NCBI GenBank assembly: GCA_021815445.1
Contig: JAKAGM010000002.1
Coordinates: forward strand, 225,345 to 289,344
Length of the DNA stretch: 64,000 nt
Origin: a bacterium
GTDB lineage: Bacteria > Patescibacteriota > Patescibacteriia > UBA10025
Direction: 5' to 3'
The notes below the pieces were generated by a model that saw nothing but the letters and a program-made list of their open reading frames with translations, was not told the DNA's origin and made no database searches. This document shows, one piece after another, positions 9,893 through 13,696 of the stretch; within the stretch, counting starts at the first letter, position 1; every line of letters starts with the position of its first letter. Position numbers and translations under genes: made by a program.

Positions 9893-11692
9893 ATGCCTCC
9901 ATTTTCAAGCTCTTCCCCAGTGGAAGAAATCAAATCCCGGATCGACATCGTTGACCTGATCCAGGAATATATCCAGCTCAAGCCGGGCGGGGCGAATTGG
10001 CGTGCCAATTGCCCCTTTCACCAGGAAAAAACGCCTTCGTTTATGGTATCCCGCGACAAGCAGATCTGGCATTGTTTCGGGTGCAACGAGGGCGGAGACA
10101 TTTTTACTTTTGTGCAAAAAATTGAAGGGATGGAATTTCCCGAAGCGCTGCGGGTCCTGGCAAAAAAAGCGAACGTCCAGCTCCCCTCATTCAACCCCGA
10201 GCTCCAAAATCAGAAGACACGGCTGCTTGACCTCATGAAGTCCGCCGTTCAATTTTACCAGGCGGCGCTCCAAGAGTCGGCGGACGGCAAGATTGCGCGG
10301 GAGTACCTGGCCCGTCGGGGCGTCAAAGCTGCCGCCGTAGAAACTTTCCAGCTCGGCTATTCCCCGGATGCATGGAGCAAGCTGAACACATACTTAGTTC
10401 AACAGCATTTCACCGACCAGGAAATATTTCTTGCCGGCCTTACCATCAAACGCGAGAGGGGGCAGGGATACTATGACAGATTCCGCGGCCGGTTGATGTT
10501 TCCGCTCCGGGATATCCACGGCAACGTGATCGGCTTCGGCGCGAGGAAACTCAAAGAGGACGACGACTCCGCGAAGTATATTAATTCCCCGCAGTCCGCC
10601 ATTTATGACAAGGGCGGTTTTCTCTACGGTCTCGACCAGGCAAAGCAGTTTATCCGCGAGCAGAAGGTCGCCGTCATCGTCGAGGGCTATATGGATGCCA
10701 TCGCGTCGCACCAAGCCGGTGTCTGCAACGTCGTCGCCTCTTCGGGTACAGCCCTGACTGACCGGCAGGTCAAGCTGCTGAAACGGTTTACCGCGACCGT
10801 CGCCCTGGCTTTTGACGCCGACCTCGCAGGCATGGACGCGTCCCAGCGGGGCATCGATATAGCCTTGCGAGAAGAAATGGACGTCAAAGTCATCACCCTT
10901 CCTTTCGGCAAGGATCCCGATGAGCTGATTGCCAAAGATCCTTCCGCATGGAGCAAGGCAGTCGGCGCTTCGCAAGGGATCATGGAGTATACTTTTGACC
11001 GTGCGACGAAAGGCAAAGACCTCACCCAGCTCGCGCATAAGAAAGAGCTCGTGCGGGCGATCCTGAGGGCGCTTTCACAGCTTCCCGATCCCATTGAGCA
11101 GGTACATTATCTTCAGAAGCTCTCGGCAATCGTCGGCGTCGATGAGCAGGTATTGCGCGAAAAATTCGCGGTACTGCAGGGCAAAAAAAAGTCCGTCGTC
11201 ACCGCAAAAACCGTCCCTGAGGCCCGCCAACCGCAATCGCGTCTCAACGCATATGCCGAAAGGCTTATTTCCGGCCTTCTCAAAGACCCTTCCTCGCTGA
11301 GCGAGGTGATGGCGCAGTTGACGCCGGAGGTGTTCGAGGACCCCCATTATCGCGAGCTTTACAACAGGCTCATCCTTGCGTATACTTCAAATAATACCTT
11401 TGATCTCAATGCATTCACCGAAGAGGTCAAGAAGAACGACCCACAGGCAGCGGACTCTGTAGCCCTCTTGCTTATGCGTGCTGAGCGCGAGTTCGAAGAC
11501 CTCGGGGAAGAGGCTTTCCGCAAAGATATTATCGCTACGTCACAGCTGCTCCTGCGGGAATTCTTGTCCCGGGAAGTCCAGCGCGTCTCGCAGCATATCG
11601 GAGAAGCCGAGCGCCGCGGCGACAGCCAGGAAATGAGCCGGCTGACAACCGCTCATCGCGTGCTGACCGACAAGCTGGTTAAACTTTCCTAA
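9893..11692 (+). CDS. dnaG: DNA primase DnaG
   Basis: CHC2 zinc finger CPFHQEKTPSF..HCFGCNEGGD, TOPRIM VIVEGYMDAIA, followed by rpoD. Confidence 0.9.
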   Translation: MPPFSSSSPVEEIKSRIDIVDLIQEYIQLKPGGANWRANCPFHQEKTPSFMVSRDKQIWHCFGCNEGGDIFTFVQKIEGMEFPEALRVLAKKANVQLPSFNPELQNQKTRLLDLMKSAVQFYQAALQESADGKIAREYLARRGVKAAAVETFQLGYSPDAWSKLNTYLVQQHFTDQEIFLAGLTIKRERGQGYYDRFRGRLMFPLRDIHGNVIGFGARKLKEDDDSAKYINSPQSAIYDKGGFLYGLDQAKQFIREQKVAVIVEGYMDAIASHQAGVCNVVASSGTALTDRQVKLLKRFTATVALAFDADLAGMDASQRGIDIALREEMDVKVITLPFGKDPDELIAKDPSAWSKAVGASQGIMEYTFDRATKGKDLTQLAHKKELVRAILRALSQLPDPIEQVHYLQKLSAIVGVDEQVLREKFAVLQGKKKSVVTAKTVPEARQPQSRLNAYAERLISGLLKDPSSLSEVMAQLTPEVFEDPHYRELYNRLILAYTSNNTFDLNAFTEEVKKNDPQAADSVALLLMRAEREFEDLGEEAFRKDIIATSQLLLREFLSREVQRVSQHIGEAERRGDSQEMSRLTTAHRVLTDKLVKLS

Positions 11693-11749: not shown

Positions 11750-12943
11750 ATGACGAGTATCATGAAGAAAAAAAAGCGCATAGAGAAAAAACCGCCAAAA
11801 ACTAAAAAGCAGACACCGAGGAAAGCCAGACAGCGAAAAGCCGAGGTTGAAACGATCCCGGAGGACGTAATCCGCAAACTCATCCAAAAAGGACGGTCGC
11901 GGGGATTTATCACCGAGACTGAAATTCTCTACGCGCTTCCCGATGTCGAGGAACACCTCCTCGAGTATGAGGAACTTCTCGACACGTTCGAGCATGTGGG
12001 CATCCAGGTCGTCGAGCACCAGGCGTCTCTTATCAATCTCCCTGAGCCCGTAGAGGTGGAAAAGAAAAAAGGAAAGAAAAAAGCCGCCGATGCCCGTTAC
12101 CTCGACCTTTCTGACATCTCAAACGATTCTATACAGATGTATCTCAGGGAAATCGGCAAGGTGCCTCTCTTAAATGCGGAAGAAGAGGTCTCGCTGGCAA
12201 AGCGGAAAGATCGCGGAGAAGTCGAAGCAAAAAAGAAACTTGTCGAAGCCAACCTCCGCCTTGTCGTAAGTATCGCAAAGAAATTCACCGGCAGGTCGCT
12301 CTCTCTCCTTGATCTTATCCAGGAGGGCAACATCGGCCTGTTCAGAGCCGTCGAGAAATTTGATTACCGCAAGGGCTACAAATTTTCCACCTATGCCACG
12401 TGGTGGATCCGCCAGGCGATCACCCGTTCGCTTGCCGACCAATCACGGACTATCCGCATTCCCGTCCACATGGTAGAGACGATTAACAAATTCCAGCAGG
12501 TAGAGCGCCAGCTCATCCAGGACCTGGGCCGGGAGCCGCTCCCAGAGGAAATTGCCGCTGAGATGGGCGAGGAGGTTGACAAAATCCACCATATCATTAA
12601 GATTTCACAAGACACCGTCTCCCTCGAAACCTCTGTCGGCGACAGCGATGACGAGGATTCGGTTCTCGGCGACTTCATCGAAGACGTCAAATCAATGACG
12701 CCTGATCGCGTCGCCGCCATGCAACTCCTCAAAGACCACGTGCAGGGGATTATCCAGGAACTTTCACCGCGTGAGCAGAAGATTCTCGAAATGCGCTTCG
12801 GACTGATCGACGGCGTCGCGCATACCCTCGAGGAAGTCGGCCATGAATTCGGCGTCACCCGGGAGCGCATCCGCCAGATTGAAGCCAAGGCGCTCGAGAA
12901 GATTGAGGAGCATGAGGGCATGAAGCGGCTAAAGGATTACTAG
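11750..12943 (+). CDS. rpoD: RNA polymerase sigma factor RpoD (sigma-70)
   Basis: Region 2 [39 protein letters not shown], region 4 HTH; conserved dnaG-rpoD order. Confidence 0.9.
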
Positions 12944-12964: not shown

Positions 12965-13297
12965 ATGGCAGGAAAAGATAAAAGAAAGTACAAGGATCGG
13001 GCAGTATATCTGATTCAAGCCGTCACGCGGAGGAGAAAGAGGGTCCGACAGATGGCCCTCGAGCACAAAGGCGCGAAGTGTGAAATCTGCGGATATCGAC
13101 GATGCCCTGAAGCCCTTGAATTCCATCACCGATCCGGAAAAAAAGATTTTGGAATTTCACAAAAAGGATACACGAGGAGCTGGGAAAGGGTAAGAGCGGA
13201 ATTGAATAAATGCGTGCTTGTATGTGCTAACTGCCACCGGGAAATACATACAGGACTTGTCCGACTTCCAAAAATAAGGAAACAGACCGTAAATTAA
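12965..13297 (+). CDS. HNH endonuclease
   Basis: CEICGY..FHHRSGKKDF...CANCHREIH HNH motif with zinc-binding Cys pairs. Confidence 0.65.
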   Translation: MAGKDKRKYKDRAVYLIQAVTRRRKRVRQMALEHKGAKCEICGYRRCPEALEFHHRSGKKDFGISQKGYTRSWERVRAELNKCVLVCANCHREIHTGLVRLPKIRKQTVN

Positions 13298-13314
13298 TAA
13301 GTTACGCGCTGCGC

Positions 13315-13604
13315 TCCGGAGTAGCTCAATGGTTAGAGCAACCGGCTGTGAACTTTAAACGCAGCTCCCGACGGAAACGTCTGGATGAACTCTCCGGGAT
13401 AACGGTGAAGGCTAAGTGCAAATGTAATTTGGATACGCTAACACCGTGGGAACCCACCTGCGCTAAAGCTTCGGTGGGGCGCCGTAGAGACTAGATACCG
13501 GAGTACCCAAAAAGCAATATGGGTAAAGATATAGTCCGTGCCGTATGGAAACATATGGAGTATACGTAACCGGTAGGTTGTCGGTTCGAGTCCGACCTCC
13601 GGAG
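13315..13604 (+). tRNA. tRNA-Asn (anticodon GUU) interrupted by a group I intron in the anticodon loop (exons 13315-13349 and 13567-13604)
   Basis: Acceptor TCCGGAG/CTCCGGA, D-arm GCTC-AATGGTTA-GAGC, anticodon stem ACCGG/CCGGT, spliced loop CTGT|TAA, variable AGGTT, T-arm GTCGG-TTCGAGT-CCGAC, discriminator G. Confidence 0.7.
13350..13566 (+). ncRNA. Group I self-splicing intron (no ORF) within tRNA-Asn anticodon loop
   Basis: 5' exon ends in U (GCUGU) that can pair with internal guide GCAGC at intron 5' end (U-G wobble), conserved R-like GAGACUAGA and S element AAGAUAUAGUCC forming P7, terminal G before 3' exon. Confidence 0.7.
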
Positions 13605-13696
13605 CATAGCGCGTAATAAAAATAGAGCATGACCCGAGAATCCCGAGGGTCAGTTTTAGGTATCTTAATTAATCATTCTTATGTGTATATACTATT

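What the first reader, a model, noticed from the sequence alone, without database searches (positions are those of the whole stretch)
13315..13604. tRNA-Asn(GUU) split by a ~217-nt group I intron in the anticodon loop
A complete cloverleaf is only obtained after removing 13350-13566. The removed segment has group I hallmarks read directly from the sequence: the 5' exon ends in U (GCUGU) and can pair with an internal guide GCAGC at the intron start with a U-G wobble; an R-like element GAGACUAGA and the canonical S element AAGAUAUAGUCC form P7; the last intron nucleotide is G. The spliced loop CUGUUAA gives anticodon GUU with A37 and discriminator G73, consistent with Asn. Group I introns in bacterial tRNAs are known mainly for Leu(UAA), fMet, Ile and Arg; an Asn(GUU) host is unusual. 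No ORF lies inside the intron.
Basis: partly seen in the sequence, partly recalled or inferred. Interest (0 to 1): 0.65.

Follow-up and report, generated by a model that had tools for sequence, protein, structure and literature searches.

The report
Self-splicing intron in tRNA-Asn gene
The asparagine tRNA gene here really is split by a 217-base self-splicing group I intron, a kind already published for this bacterial group, and the small gene just upstream is a free-standing relative of the homing endonucleases usually found inside such introns.

Summary
Rfam Intron_gpI matches 13346-13558 above its gathering score. ARAGORN with intron detection calls tRNA-Asn(GUU) at 13315-13605, with a 217-nt intron (13350-13566) between anticodon positions 35 and 36. 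An alignment of 89 homologous introns shows strong covariation for P1-P9.0, including a 2-bp P9.0 that fixes the 3' splice site.

The claim that an Asn host is unusual is out of date. Williams (2020) and Nakagawa et al. [quoted passage not shown] Nakagawa et al. showed self-splicing in vitro and found this the commonest tRNA intron in Patescibacteria. My capped scan found 54 more Asn and 52 Asp cases. This locus is a new member of a known kind.

One thing is less ordinary. The 110-aa ORF at 12965-13297 ends 17 nt before the tRNA. It is 52-66% identical to the HNH endonucleases encoded inside the long tRNA-Asn introns of other genomes. Among the metagenome relatives examined, the gene lies in the intron in most cases and free-standing beside the tRNA in a minority. 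In phage tRNA arrays it sits beside tRNA-Asn far more often than chance predicts. That the protein cuts DNA and drives homing is inferred, not shown.

The parts
13315..13349 (+). tRNA-Asn(GUU) 5' exon, positions 1-35: acceptor 5' strand, D arm, anticodon-stem 5' strand and loop C32 U33 G34 U35
   Evidence: ARAGORN on the spliced and unspliced sequence. The last six bases, GGCUGU, form P1 with the intron.
13350..13566 (+). Group I intron, 217 nt, no internal ORF, inserted between anticodon positions 35 and 36
   Evidence: Rfam RF00028: 54 bits, gathering score 50, E = 6.5e-11. ARAGORN intron call. Covariation on 89 homologues. 70-80% identity to many tRNA-Asn and tRNA-Asp 35/36 introns.
13567..13604 (+). 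tRNA-Asn 3' exon, positions 36-73: U36 A37 A38, anticodon-stem 3' strand, variable loop, T arm, acceptor 3' strand, discriminator G73. CCA is not encoded.
   Evidence: The spliced tRNA is 60/73 identical to an intron-less tRNA-Asn(GTT) in locus L186.
13361..13366 (+). Internal guide sequence GCAGCU, the 3' strand of P1. It pairs with exon bases 13344-13349, and U13349.G13361 is the wobble pair at the 5' splice site.
   Evidence: GCAG is invariant in 89/89 homologues although it was not part of the search pattern.
13367..13384 (+). P2 hairpin (13367-13373 / 13378-13384) with a GAAA tetraloop (L2)
   Evidence: MFE fold. All 7 pairs show changes on both sides across homologues (helix 2).
13392..13397 (+). 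P3 5' strand, pairing with 13498-13503
   Evidence: 96-98% of cells paired, and all pairs have compensatory changes (helices 3-4).
13402..13483 (+). P4-P6 domain: P4 13402-07/13442-47; P5 13410-12/13437-39, with a CUAAG...UACG motif that resembles a tetraloop receptor; P5a 13416-23/13427-34; P6 13448-49/13482-83; P6a 13453-58/13473-78
   Evidence: The first P4 pair is U-A in 46 sequences and A-U in 43.
13489..13493 (+). P7 5' strand GACUA (within the R element GUAGAGACUAGA), pairing with 13532-13536
   Evidence: Invariant in 89/89 homologues; this strand was not in the search pattern. It forms a pseudoknot with P3.
13498..13503 (+). P3 3' strand CCGGAG
13505..13524 (+). P8 hairpin (13505-13509 / 13520-13524)
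   Evidence: helix 11; 4 of 5 pairs have compensatory changes.
13527..13538 (+). S element AAGAUAUAGUCC. UAGUC (13532-13536) is the 3' strand of P7.
13538..13566 (+). P9.0 (GU 13538-39 with AC 13564-65), the P9 hairpin 13541-47/13552-58 with a GAAA tetraloop, and the terminal G at 13566
   Evidence: P9.0 is 99.4% paired across 89 sequences, with AU/GU/GC and CG/UA/UG/AU variants. This fixes the 3' splice site.
12965..13297 (+). Free-standing HNH endonuclease gene, 110 aa, ending 17 nt before the tRNA. It is a homologue of the endonucleases encoded inside long tRNA-Asn 35/36 introns.
   Evidence: - tblastn: 52-66% identity, E 1e-36 to 1e-46, to ORFs inside 13 long introns.
- All 25 invariant residues of the family are present, including CxxC, HH and CxNCH.
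- 15/15 family members hit Pfam PF01844.
- The family profile hits the HNH domain of PDB 6ME0 with E = 2e-5.
13302..13314 (+). 5' leader complementary to the 3' trailer 13604-13616. It extends the acceptor stem by about 8-9 further base pairs.
   Evidence: Inverted repeat with arms 13302-13321 and 13597-13616, 20 nt, 90% complementary. L119 has the same feature with a different sequence.
11750..12943 (+). rpoD (sigma-70), context gene. The dnaG-rpoD-tRNA-Asn order is conserved in many related loci.
   Evidence: Pfam; synteny and spacer lengths.

Best explanation
This is a tRNA-Asn(GUU) gene of a Patescibacteria-type bacterium, interrupted between anticodon nucleotides U35 and U36 by a compact 217-nt group I ribozyme.

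**How it most likely works**
1. The precursor is transcribed, probably together with the upstream dnaG-rpoD-HNH genes.
2. The last six exon bases, GGCUGU, pair with the internal guide GCAGCU to form P1, with U35.G as the wobble pair that marks the 5' splice site.
3. The P3-P8 and P4-P6 domains fold around P7, which holds the guanosine-binding site. The GAAA loops of P2 and P9 dock on helices P8 and P5.
4. A free guanosine attacks after U35.
5. The 2-bp P9.0 then places the terminal G13566 in the same site. The 3'-OH of U35 attacks after G13566 and joins U35 to U36, restoring the anticodon GUU.
6. CCA is added afterwards, because it is not encoded.

**The upstream gene.** The 110-aa HNH gene belongs to the endonuclease family that elsewhere sits in the P1 loop of this same intron. 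Here it is free-standing. The most likely reading is a homing endonuclease that targets tRNA-Asn genes and is inherited, or spreads, together with the adjacent ORF-less intron by co-conversion.

**Shown:** the gene and intron anatomy, homology, covariation, and the three genomic arrangements of the HNH family.
**Inferred:** splicing activity, by analogy with in vitro results on related introns in PMC13011429; endonuclease activity and its target; co-transcription.
For: **Intron and tRNA**
- Rfam RF00028 matches above its gathering score.
- ARAGORN calls tRNA-Asn(gtt) with a 217-nt intron at 35/36.
- The MFE fold recovers P1-P9 with z = -3.64.
- A capped scan of 185,579 species genomes returned 120 loci. 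From these I resolved 54 further tRNA-Asn and 52 tRNA-Asp genes with an intron at the same site. The window intron is 70-80% identical to many of them.
- Covariation: 84.6% of cells paired against 35-42% when slid; 45 of 63 pairs have compensatory changes; P9.0 is 99.4% paired with several pair types.
- The spliced tRNA is 60/73 identical to an intron-less tRNA-Asn.
- Nakagawa et al. [quoted passage not shown]
- Their Table S3 lists an intron of the same lineage, GCA_030583765.1, identical at 155 of the window intron's 217 positions.

**HNH gene**
- Homology to intron-encoded ORFs; HNH fold.
- Of the 80 best metagenome relatives, 57 lie inside tRNA-Asn 35/36 introns. Six lie free-standing upstream of an intron-bearing tRNA-Asn (five within 131 nt, one 396 nt away) and one or two just downstream.
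- None lies near any of the 52 tRNA-Asp introns.
- In viral contigs the nearest tRNA is Asn(GTT) in 43 of 74 loci, against 11 expected.
- The three closest free-standing copies keep 70-75% protein identity while synonymous sites are saturated.
- The rpoD-to-tRNA spacer is 44-160 nt without the gene and 322-399 nt with it.
Against: - There is no expression or splicing data for this locus.
- The Rfam score is only 4 bits above the gathering score.
- The two introns validated in the paper belong to lineages other than this one. The Asn one has an extra region after P7. The Asp one is compact like this intron but only loosely alignable.
- I found no convincing P10.
- On its own, the window HNH protein is below Pfam's threshold (E = 0.048).
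- No cleavage site is known for this HNH family.
- Long-term conservation of a fixed endonuclease gene could also mean it has been domesticated rather than being mobile.
- I found no promoter-like site, and the terminator scan called none, between rpoD and the tRNA. Co-transcription is therefore only a default assumption.
- I could not check the rest of the genome for a second tRNA-Asn copy.
Confidence: 0.85

Rival explanations
1. The intron is real, but the upstream HNH gene is not a homing endonuclease acting on this locus. It would be either a domesticated protein with a host function (for example helping to process or fold the intron-bearing precursor) or an immobile relic that happens to remain intact.
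For: - The gene sits at the same place in three related genomes (window, L119, L126). Protein identity is 70-75% with synonymous sites saturated, which looks like long-term vertical inheritance under purifying selection rather than recent invasion.
- Selfish endonuclease genes are expected to decay once fixed (Hausner et al. 2014, PMC3984707).
- No target site is known.
Against: - The same family lies inside the intron in most cases. It also lies beside intron-less tRNA-Asn genes in many phage tRNA arrays. That pattern fits an element that tracks a DNA target in different genomes, not a host factor of one lineage.
- Free-standing copies are scattered among intronic clades in a neighbour-joining tree, which has no support values.
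- In close relatives the same spacer holds a GIY-YIG nuclease gene instead, as expected of a landing site for selfish nucleases.
Confidence: 0.3
2. The gene is a decaying or non-functional copy. The intron can no longer splice on its own, or splices only with a protein helper, and a different intron-less tRNA-Asn elsewhere in the genome does the work.
For: - Only 64 kb of the genome could be inspected.
- One metagenome locus (L133) carries an intron-bearing and an intron-less tRNA-Asn 1.1 kb apart, so double copies exist.
- The Rfam score is close to threshold.
Against: - Every helix of the window copy is intact apart from one C.U in P2 and one G.G in P5a.
- All invariant core bases of the 89-sequence family are present.
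- The cloverleaf has no mismatch.
- Nakagawa et al. report that intron-bearing and intron-less copies with the same anticodon rarely coexist, and that the genes they tested were the sole copies.
Confidence: 0.07
3. The splice sites are shifted by two bases, and the host is a tRNA-Thr interrupted at 33/34, as ARAGORN and tFind call many homologues.
For: ARAGORN calls many homologous loci tRNA-Thr(tgt) with an intron at 33/34. The paper reports the same ambiguity.
Against: - In the window a 2-nt shift would end the intron in A rather than G and give anticodon CGU.
- It would also break the U.G pair of P1 and the covarying P9.0.
- ARAGORN itself calls Asn here.
- Discriminator G73 and the body match intron-less tRNA-Asn.
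Confidence: 0.01

Closest known systems
[quoted passage not shown]
   Same: - Same host tRNA, same insertion site, U before the 5' splice site and G at the intron end, and the same bacterial group.
- An intron of the same sequence lineage is listed in their Table S3: GCA_030583765.1, identical at 155 of the window intron's 217 positions.
- The HNH genes inside their long Asn introns (GCA_000503835.1, GCA_016699425.1) are of the same family as the window ORF, judged by reading the sequences.
   Different: - This genome (GCA_027341205.1, a MAG) is not in their set of complete genomes.
- Here the HNH gene lies outside the intron, in the rpoD-tRNA spacer. The paper does not mention that arrangement: it has no occurrence of 'free-standing'.
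- They assign nearly all Patescibacteria tRNA introns to subgroup IA with covariance models. By anatomy the window intron has no room for P7.1/P7.2 between P7 and P3. I could not run their models.
Compact bacterial tRNA introns of subgroup IC3 (Azoarcus tRNA-Ile, cyanobacterial tRNA-Leu); structural comparison from my own knowledge, not a tool result
   Same: - About 200 nt long, with no P5abc and no P7.1/P7.2.
- GAAA tetraloops on P2 and P9.
- Receptor-like CUAAG...UAUG motifs in P5 and P8 in most family members.
- The R element GUAGAGACUAGA matches the Azoarcus sequence as I recall it (marked as from memory).
   Different: - Different host tRNA and insertion site: 35/36 rather than 36/37 or 34/35.
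- Subgroup membership was not tested with subgroup models, and the published classification of this lineage is IA.
[quoted passage not shown] Reviewed in Hausner et al. 2014, PMC3984707; also PMC2790892 and PMC6083498
   Same: [quoted passage not shown] The same endonuclease family is found embedded in the intron in other genomes, which is the end state that model predicts.
   Different: - Those cases are in phage protein-coding genes. This one is in a bacterial chromosomal tRNA gene.
- There the endonuclease target was mapped to the intron insertion site. Here no cleavage data exist.
[quoted passage not shown]
   Same: A homing endonuclease dedicated to one tRNA gene that carries a group I intron in its anticodon loop.
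   Different: A different enzyme family (PD-(D/E)XK rather than HNH), a different tRNA, and always intron-encoded.

Membership tests
Group I intron (Rfam RF00028) | Covariance-model score at or above the curated gathering score | tested here: met
   54.0 bits against 50, E = 6.5e-11, full model length.
Group I intron (Rfam RF00028) | [quoted passage not shown] | tested here: met
   GGCUGU/GCAGCU, with U13349.G13361. The guide bases GCAG are invariant in 89/89 homologues.
Group I intron (Rfam RF00028) | Core helices P3-P8 and P4-P6 around P7, supported by covariation | tested here: met
   84.6% paired against 35-42% when slid; 45 of 63 pairs compensatory; 0 of 500 shuffles reach this. P7 is invariant, so it gives no information either way.
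Group I intron (Rfam RF00028) | Terminal G at the 3' end, positioned by P9.0 | tested here: met
   G13566. The 2-bp P9.0 is 99.4% paired across 89 sequences with several pair types.
Group I intron (Rfam RF00028) | Guanosine-dependent self-splicing | not testable with these tools
   Shown in vitro only for two related 35/36 introns of other lineages (PMC13011429).
tRNA-Asn(GUU) with a 35/36 intron, Patescibacteria type (PMC13011429) | Intron between anticodon positions 35 and 36; the spliced product is a canonical tRNA-Asn | tested here: met
   ARAGORN reports 'Insertion Position(35-36)' and tRNA-Asn(gtt). 60/73 identity to an intron-less tRNA-Asn.
tRNA-Asn(GUU) with a 35/36 intron, Patescibacteria type (PMC13011429) | The host is a member of Patescibacteria | tested here: inconclusive
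- RpoD is 75% identical to L119 and 73% to L083 (both labelled 'Patescibacteria group bacterium') and 67-71% to Uhrbacteria and Moranbacteria MAGs.
- The dnaG-rpoD-tRNA-Asn gene order is shared.
- Membership is likely but was not established with marker-gene phylogeny.
tRNA-Asn(GUU) with a 35/36 intron, Patescibacteria type (PMC13011429) | Subgroup IA by covariance-model classification | not tested
   The subgroup models are not available here. By anatomy, only GAUA separates P7 from P3, so there is no room for P7.1/P7.2.
HNH endonuclease (Pfam PF01844) | HNH motif with zinc-binding cysteines | tested here: met
   - The window protein alone scores E = 0.048, below the cut-off.
- All 15 aligned family members hit PF01844, best 5.7e-5.
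- The family profile hits the HNH domain of 6ME0 with E = 2e-5.
- CxxC, HH and CxNCH are invariant and present in the window copy.
Homing endonuclease of tRNA-Asn introns | Homology to endonuclease genes embedded in the intron | tested here: met
   52-66% identity, E 1e-36 to 1e-46, to ORFs in the P1 loop of 13 long introns. 57 of the 80 best metagenome relatives are intronic.
Homing endonuclease of tRNA-Asn introns | Site-specific cleavage of the endonuclease-free or intron-free allele, followed by gene conversion | not testable with these tools
   There is only indirect support: association with tRNA-Asn in three arrangements.
Collaborative homing pair | A free-standing endonuclease gene adjacent to an ORF-less intron in the same gene | tested here: met
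   The HNH stop codon ends at 13297 and the tRNA starts at 13315; the intron has no ORF. The arrangement recurs in L119, L048 and L092 and in L126, L146, L147, L182 and L196, with L203 396 nt away.
Collaborative homing pair | The endonuclease target coincides with the intron insertion site, so the intron protects its carrier | not testable with these tools
   No cleavage data. Many phage copies sit beside intron-less tRNA-Asn genes, so the intron cannot be the only source of immunity.

The most novel reading that the evidence does not exclude
The HNH gene at 12965-13297 is an active member of an endonuclease family that homes specifically to tRNA-Asn genes. The family is caught in nature in all three stages of the proposed route to a mobile group I intron:
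- free-standing beside intron-less tRNA-Asn genes in phage tRNA arrays;
- free-standing beside an ORF-less intron, as in this window;
- embedded in the P1 loop of the intron, as in most Patescibacteria and Omnitrophota cases.

The same endonuclease family is found with at least two unrelated ribozyme lineages at the same site. This would mean the endonuclease and the ribozyme move independently and meet at the tRNA-Asn gene.
Probability: 0.4. Interest if true: 0.6.

Novelty: new member of a known kind. Interest (0 to 1): 0.4.

Why it matters
**Annotation.** Default tRNA finders miss this gene, so genomes like this one look as if they lack tRNA-Asn. Nakagawa et al. have already made that point.

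**Intron biology.** The intron itself adds nothing new. The locus is useful because the endonuclease sits outside the intron. Together with its relatives it gives a small, simple system: a 35-nt exon, a roughly 200-nt ribozyme and a 100-aa enzyme. In that system the long-standing idea that mobile introns arise when a free-standing endonuclease moves into an ORF-less intron could be tested by comparison and by experiment.

**Horizontal transfer.** The finding also qualifies the published inference that horizontal transfer of these tRNA introns is limited because most lack an internal endonuclease gene. Some have the gene next door.

Tried and rejected
- Single-sequence Pfam and NCBIfam scans of the HNH ORF gave only sub-threshold hits. 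The family was established through homologues instead.
- My first classifier for the metagenome loci had a one-base error in the 3'-exon pattern and found nothing. It was corrected. Five loci it still missed were rescued with ARAGORN.
- dN/dS for the free-standing HNH copies could not be computed because synonymous sites are saturated. I report only that protein identity exceeds DNA identity.
- A full-text search for the Azoarcus ribozyme sequence, to anchor the IC3 comparison in a citable source, found nothing. That comparison therefore rests on memory and is marked as a lead.
- The global pairwise alignments to the two experimentally validated introns are rich in gaps and not trustworthy beyond showing a similar core.
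- The promoter and terminator scan found nothing between rpoD, the HNH gene and the tRNA.
- I looked for P10 and found only a 3-bp possibility, set off from P1 by three bases, so I do not claim it.
- The window ribozyme has no blastn match among the 80 viral loci, so there is no evidence that phages carry this intron lineage.
- I considered and rejected the tRNA-Thr 33/34 reading. It would remove the terminal G and break P1 and P9.0.
Full report

Yes. The sequence at 13315-13604 reads exactly as described.

- Default ARAGORN finds only a tRNA-Ser in the whole window.
- When 13350-13566 is removed, it finds a perfect 73-nt cloverleaf, tRNA-Asn(gtt).
- With intron search on, it reports the same gene on the unspliced DNA: a 217-nt intron at 'Insertion Position(35-36): gctgt-Intron-taacc'.
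- Rfam's Intron_gpI model matches 13346-13558 on the + strand over the full model length: 54.0 bits, gathering score 50, E = 6.5e-11.
- The minimum-energy fold of 13340-13575 recovers P1 (exon with internal guide), P2, P3, P4-P6, P8 and P9. Its z-score is -3.64, and none of 200 shuffles folds as well.

**2. Related sequences and covariation**

I scanned one genome for each of 185,579 species. The pattern was the S element, a variable gap, G|YA, and the T loop at the spacing expected for a 35/36 insertion.

Pairing the exons by complementarity resolved 54 further tRNA-Asn and 52 tRNA-Asp genes with an intron at the same site. Most are in MAGs labelled Patescibacteria (Saccharibacteria, Paceibacterota and others); some are labelled Omnitrophota or other phyla. 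The window intron is 70-80% identical to many of them. The closest is L119, a 'Patescibacteria group bacterium', at 79.7% over 217 nt.

I aligned the 89 distinct short introns and laid the window's helices on the alignment. The pair counts were:

| Measure | Observed | Control |
|---|---|---|
| Cells forming a standard pair | 84.6% | 35-42% with 3' partners slid by 1-3 columns |
| Pairs with changes on both sides | 45 of 63 | 26-33 when slid |
| Covariation score | 0.345 | 0.06-0.125 when slid |
| Shuffles reaching the observed values | 0 of 500 | - |

Individual helices:
- P3 is 96-98% paired, with several pair types at every position.
- The first P4 pair is U-A in 46 sequences and A-U in 43.
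- The two bases before the terminal G pair with the two bases after GUCC (P9.0) in 99.4% of cells. Variants include AC/GU, AU/AU, GU/AC, GA/UC, GC/GC and AA/UU. This fixes the 3' splice site at G13566.
- P7 never varies, so it says nothing either way. Its 5' strand was not part of my search pattern, yet it is identical in all 89.
- The guide bases GCAG are also invariant.

**3. Anatomy**

| Element | Window coordinates | Note |
|---|---|---|
| P1 | 13344-49 / 13361-66 | U.G at the 5' splice site |
| P2 | 13367-73 / 13378-84 | GAAA loop |
| P3 | 13392-97 / 13498-503 | |
| P4 | 13402-07 / 13442-47 | |
| P5, P5a | 13410-12 / 13437-39; 13416-23 / 13427-34 | |
| P6, P6a | 13448-49 / 13482-83; 13453-58 / 13473-78 | |
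| P7 | 13489-93 / 13532-36 | pseudoknot with P3 |
| P8 | 13505-09 / 13520-24 | |
| P9.0 | 13538-39 / 13564-65 | |
| P9 | 13541-47 / 13552-58 | GAAA loop |

- Only four bases (GAUA) separate P7 from P3, so there is no P7.1/P7.2, and there is no P5abc.
- Most family members carry CCUAAG...UAUGG-like motifs in P5 and P8. From general knowledge of tetraloop receptors, this suggests L9-P5 and L2-P8 docking as in the Azoarcus intron. That is an inference.
- The window copy has one C.U in P2 and one G.G in P5a; all other pairs are standard.
- I found no convincing P10.
- CCA is not encoded.

**4. What is already known**

- Williams (bioRxiv 10.1101/2020.01.27.920355) expanded the classes from 4 to 21.
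- Nakagawa et al. (mSystems 2026, PMC13011429) found group I introns at 35/36 in tRNA-Asn(GUU) in 15 of 22 intron-bearing tRNA genes of 95 complete Patescibacteria genomes.
- They showed accurate in vitro self-splicing for one Asn and one Asp intron. They also noted the same ARAGORN/tFind miscalls as Thr(UGU) 33/34 that I saw.
- They reported that four Asn introns encode HNH endonucleases.
- Their Table S3 contains an intron of the window's sequence lineage (GCA_030583765.1, identical at 155 of 217 window positions).

The host tRNA, the site and the lineage are therefore all published. This MAG (GCA_027341205.1, contig DAIENG010000002.1) is simply another carrier.

They classify almost all Patescibacteria tRNA introns as subgroup IA using covariance models. 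I could not run those models. The anatomy here looks like the compact IC3 type, so the subgroup label remains open.

**5.

The gene order is dnaG (9893-11692), rpoD (11750-12943), a 110-aa ORF (12965-13297), the tRNA 17 nt later, then an ABC transporter.

*The ORF is an HNH endonuclease of the intron-encoded family.*
- Alone it is only weakly HNH-like (PF01844, E = 0.048).
- tblastn shows 52-66% identity (E 1e-36 to 1e-46) to ORFs inside the 510-580-nt versions of the tRNA-Asn intron in 13 of the genome loci.
- Those long introns align to the window intron only from about window intron position 8-10 onward. The extra ~310 nt therefore lies between the 5' splice site and the guide sequence, that is, in the P1 loop.
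- A 15-sequence alignment has 25 invariant residues, including CxxC, HH and CxNCH, and all are present in the window protein.
- All 15 members hit PF01844, and the profile hits the HNH domain of a group II intron reverse transcriptase (6ME0, E = 2e-5).

*The free-standing arrangement recurs.*
- In the genome loci it is seen in L119, L048 and L092, with L027 on the opposite strand.
- The family is found with both ribozyme lineages that occupy this site. Lineage A has GUAGAGACUAGAUAC and includes the window. Lineage B has GGUUCAGAGACUAU and is mostly Omnitrophota.
- It is never found near the 52 tRNA-Asp introns.

**6. How general is this?**

*Metagenome contigs.* A profile scan found at least 567 relatives. 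The best 80 break down as follows:

| Arrangement | Loci |
|---|---|
| Inside a tRNA-Asn 35/36 intron | 57 |
| Free-standing upstream of an intron-bearing tRNA-Asn | 6 (five within 0-131 nt, one at 396 nt) |
| Just downstream of such a gene | 1-2 |
| Beside an intron-less tRNA-Asn | 1 |
| In a 10-tRNA array | 1 |
| 5' exon not found (HNH lies upstream of the 3' exon, likely intronic) | 1 |
| At a contig end | 12 |

*Viral contigs.* A scan found at least 556 relatives. In the best 80, the gene is free-standing inside phage tRNA arrays. The nearest tRNA within 300 nt is Asn(GTT) in 43 of 74 loci, against 11 expected if the neighbour were drawn at random from each locus's tRNAs (binomial p about 1e-17; some loci are near-duplicates). 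Almost all of those tRNA-Asn genes have no intron.

*Synteny.* rpoD lies directly upstream of tRNA-Asn in many related loci. The spacer is 44-160 nt when it holds no gene, whether the intron carries an endonuclease or not. It is 322-399 nt in the four loci with a free-standing HNH; the window's is 371 nt. In two close relatives (L114 and L007, RpoD 73% identical) a spacer of about 411 nt holds a GIY-YIG nuclease gene instead.

*Phylogeny and selection.*
- A neighbour-joining tree without support values groups the window protein with other non-intronic copies (L119, L126, L147, L145, L128). It scatters the remaining free-standing copies among intronic clades.
- The window, L119 and L126 proteins are 70-75% identical, while their DNA is 62-69% identical and synonymous sites are saturated. 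The protein has therefore been kept intact over a long divergence.

**7. Mechanism**

*Splicing.* The steps are the standard group I pathway as set out in the best explanation. The anatomy and covariation are shown. The chemistry is inferred from the family and from the in vitro work on related introns.

*The HNH gene.* The best-supported reading is an endonuclease family whose DNA target is the tRNA-Asn gene. It propagates by cutting copies that lack it and being copied in during repair.
- Where it lies within about 50 nt of an ORF-less intron, as here, both would travel together. This is the collaborative homing arrangement reviewed by Hausner et al. (PMC3984707).
- Which arrangement came first is unknown.
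- Many phage copies sit beside intron-less tRNA-Asn genes, so the intron cannot be the only thing that protects carriers from self-cleavage.
- Long-term conservation at a fixed site would also fit domestication. I give that rival about 0.3.

**8. Verdict**

- The observation and the structural interpretation are correct.
- The novelty claim is not. This is a new member of a published kind.
- The added value is the free-standing endonuclease and the three arrangements of its family. The papers I could read do not describe this, and it is directly testable.
- Overall interest is moderate to low for the finding as given, and somewhat higher for the endonuclease story.

Noticed in passing
window 12965-13297 (+): A 110-aa HNH endonuclease gene ends 17 nt before the intron-bearing tRNA-Asn. 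It is 52-66% identical to the endonucleases encoded inside long versions of the same intron. It is free-standing here and in a minority of related loci.
   Followed up: yes
window 13302-13314 with 13604-13616: The 5' leader and 3' trailer of the tRNA are complementary and extend the acceptor stem by about 8-9 pairs. L119 has the same feature with a different sequence. Nine of 103 related loci have 8 or more such pairs, against about 1.6% in permuted controls. Function unknown; it may aid precursor folding or processing.
   Followed up: partly
L114 and L007, rpoD-tRNA-Asn spacer (about 411 nt before the tRNA): In two close relatives (RpoD 73% identical to the window's), the spacer that holds the HNH gene here holds a small GIY-YIG nuclease gene instead (PF01541, E = 4e-14 and 5.5e-18). 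The spot seems to attract free-standing nuclease genes.
   Followed up: partly
L004-L123 (genome loci), e.g. L032, L051, L084, L108 versus the window: At least two unrelated ribozyme lineages occupy the same 35/36 site of tRNA-Asn: GUAGAGACUAGAUAC as in the window, and GGUUCAGAGACUAU, mostly in Omnitrophota. The experimentally validated Saccharimonadia intron in the paper looks like a third. The same HNH family is found inside both lineages seen here.
   Followed up: partly
L205-L283 (viral contigs): Relatives of the HNH gene are common in phage tRNA gene arrays. They sit next to tRNA-Asn(GTT), nearly always intron-less, in 43 of 74 loci against 11 expected. Most viral matches start at about residue 17 of the window protein, so they lack its N-terminal KRKYADR segment.
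   Followed up: partly
L133 (688-1294 and 2418-2493); L186 (1817-1892 and 2001-2333): L133 carries an intron-bearing tRNA-Asn with an internal HNH gene and an intron-less tRNA-Asn 1.1 kb downstream. L186 has the HNH gene about 110 nt downstream of an intron-less tRNA-Asn.
   Followed up: no
L007, L048, L114 and others (record titles): Several MAGs titled 'uncultured Gammaproteobacteria', 'Bdellovibrionales' or 'Planctomycetales' carry RpoD 66-73% identical to the window's (L007, L048, L114 and L063 were checked) and the same dnaG-rpoD-tRNA-Asn order as MAGs labelled Patescibacteria. Their names are probably wrong.
   Followed up: no
window 13630-13657: A hairpin (TGACCC ... GGGTCA, 11-nt loop) followed by GTTTT lies about 25 nt after the tRNA. 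It is terminator-like but weak, and the terminator scan did not call it.
   Followed up: no
window 13605-13607: The 3' CCA of the tRNA is not encoded (the sequence reads CAT), whereas several homologues listed in the paper encode it.
   Followed up: no
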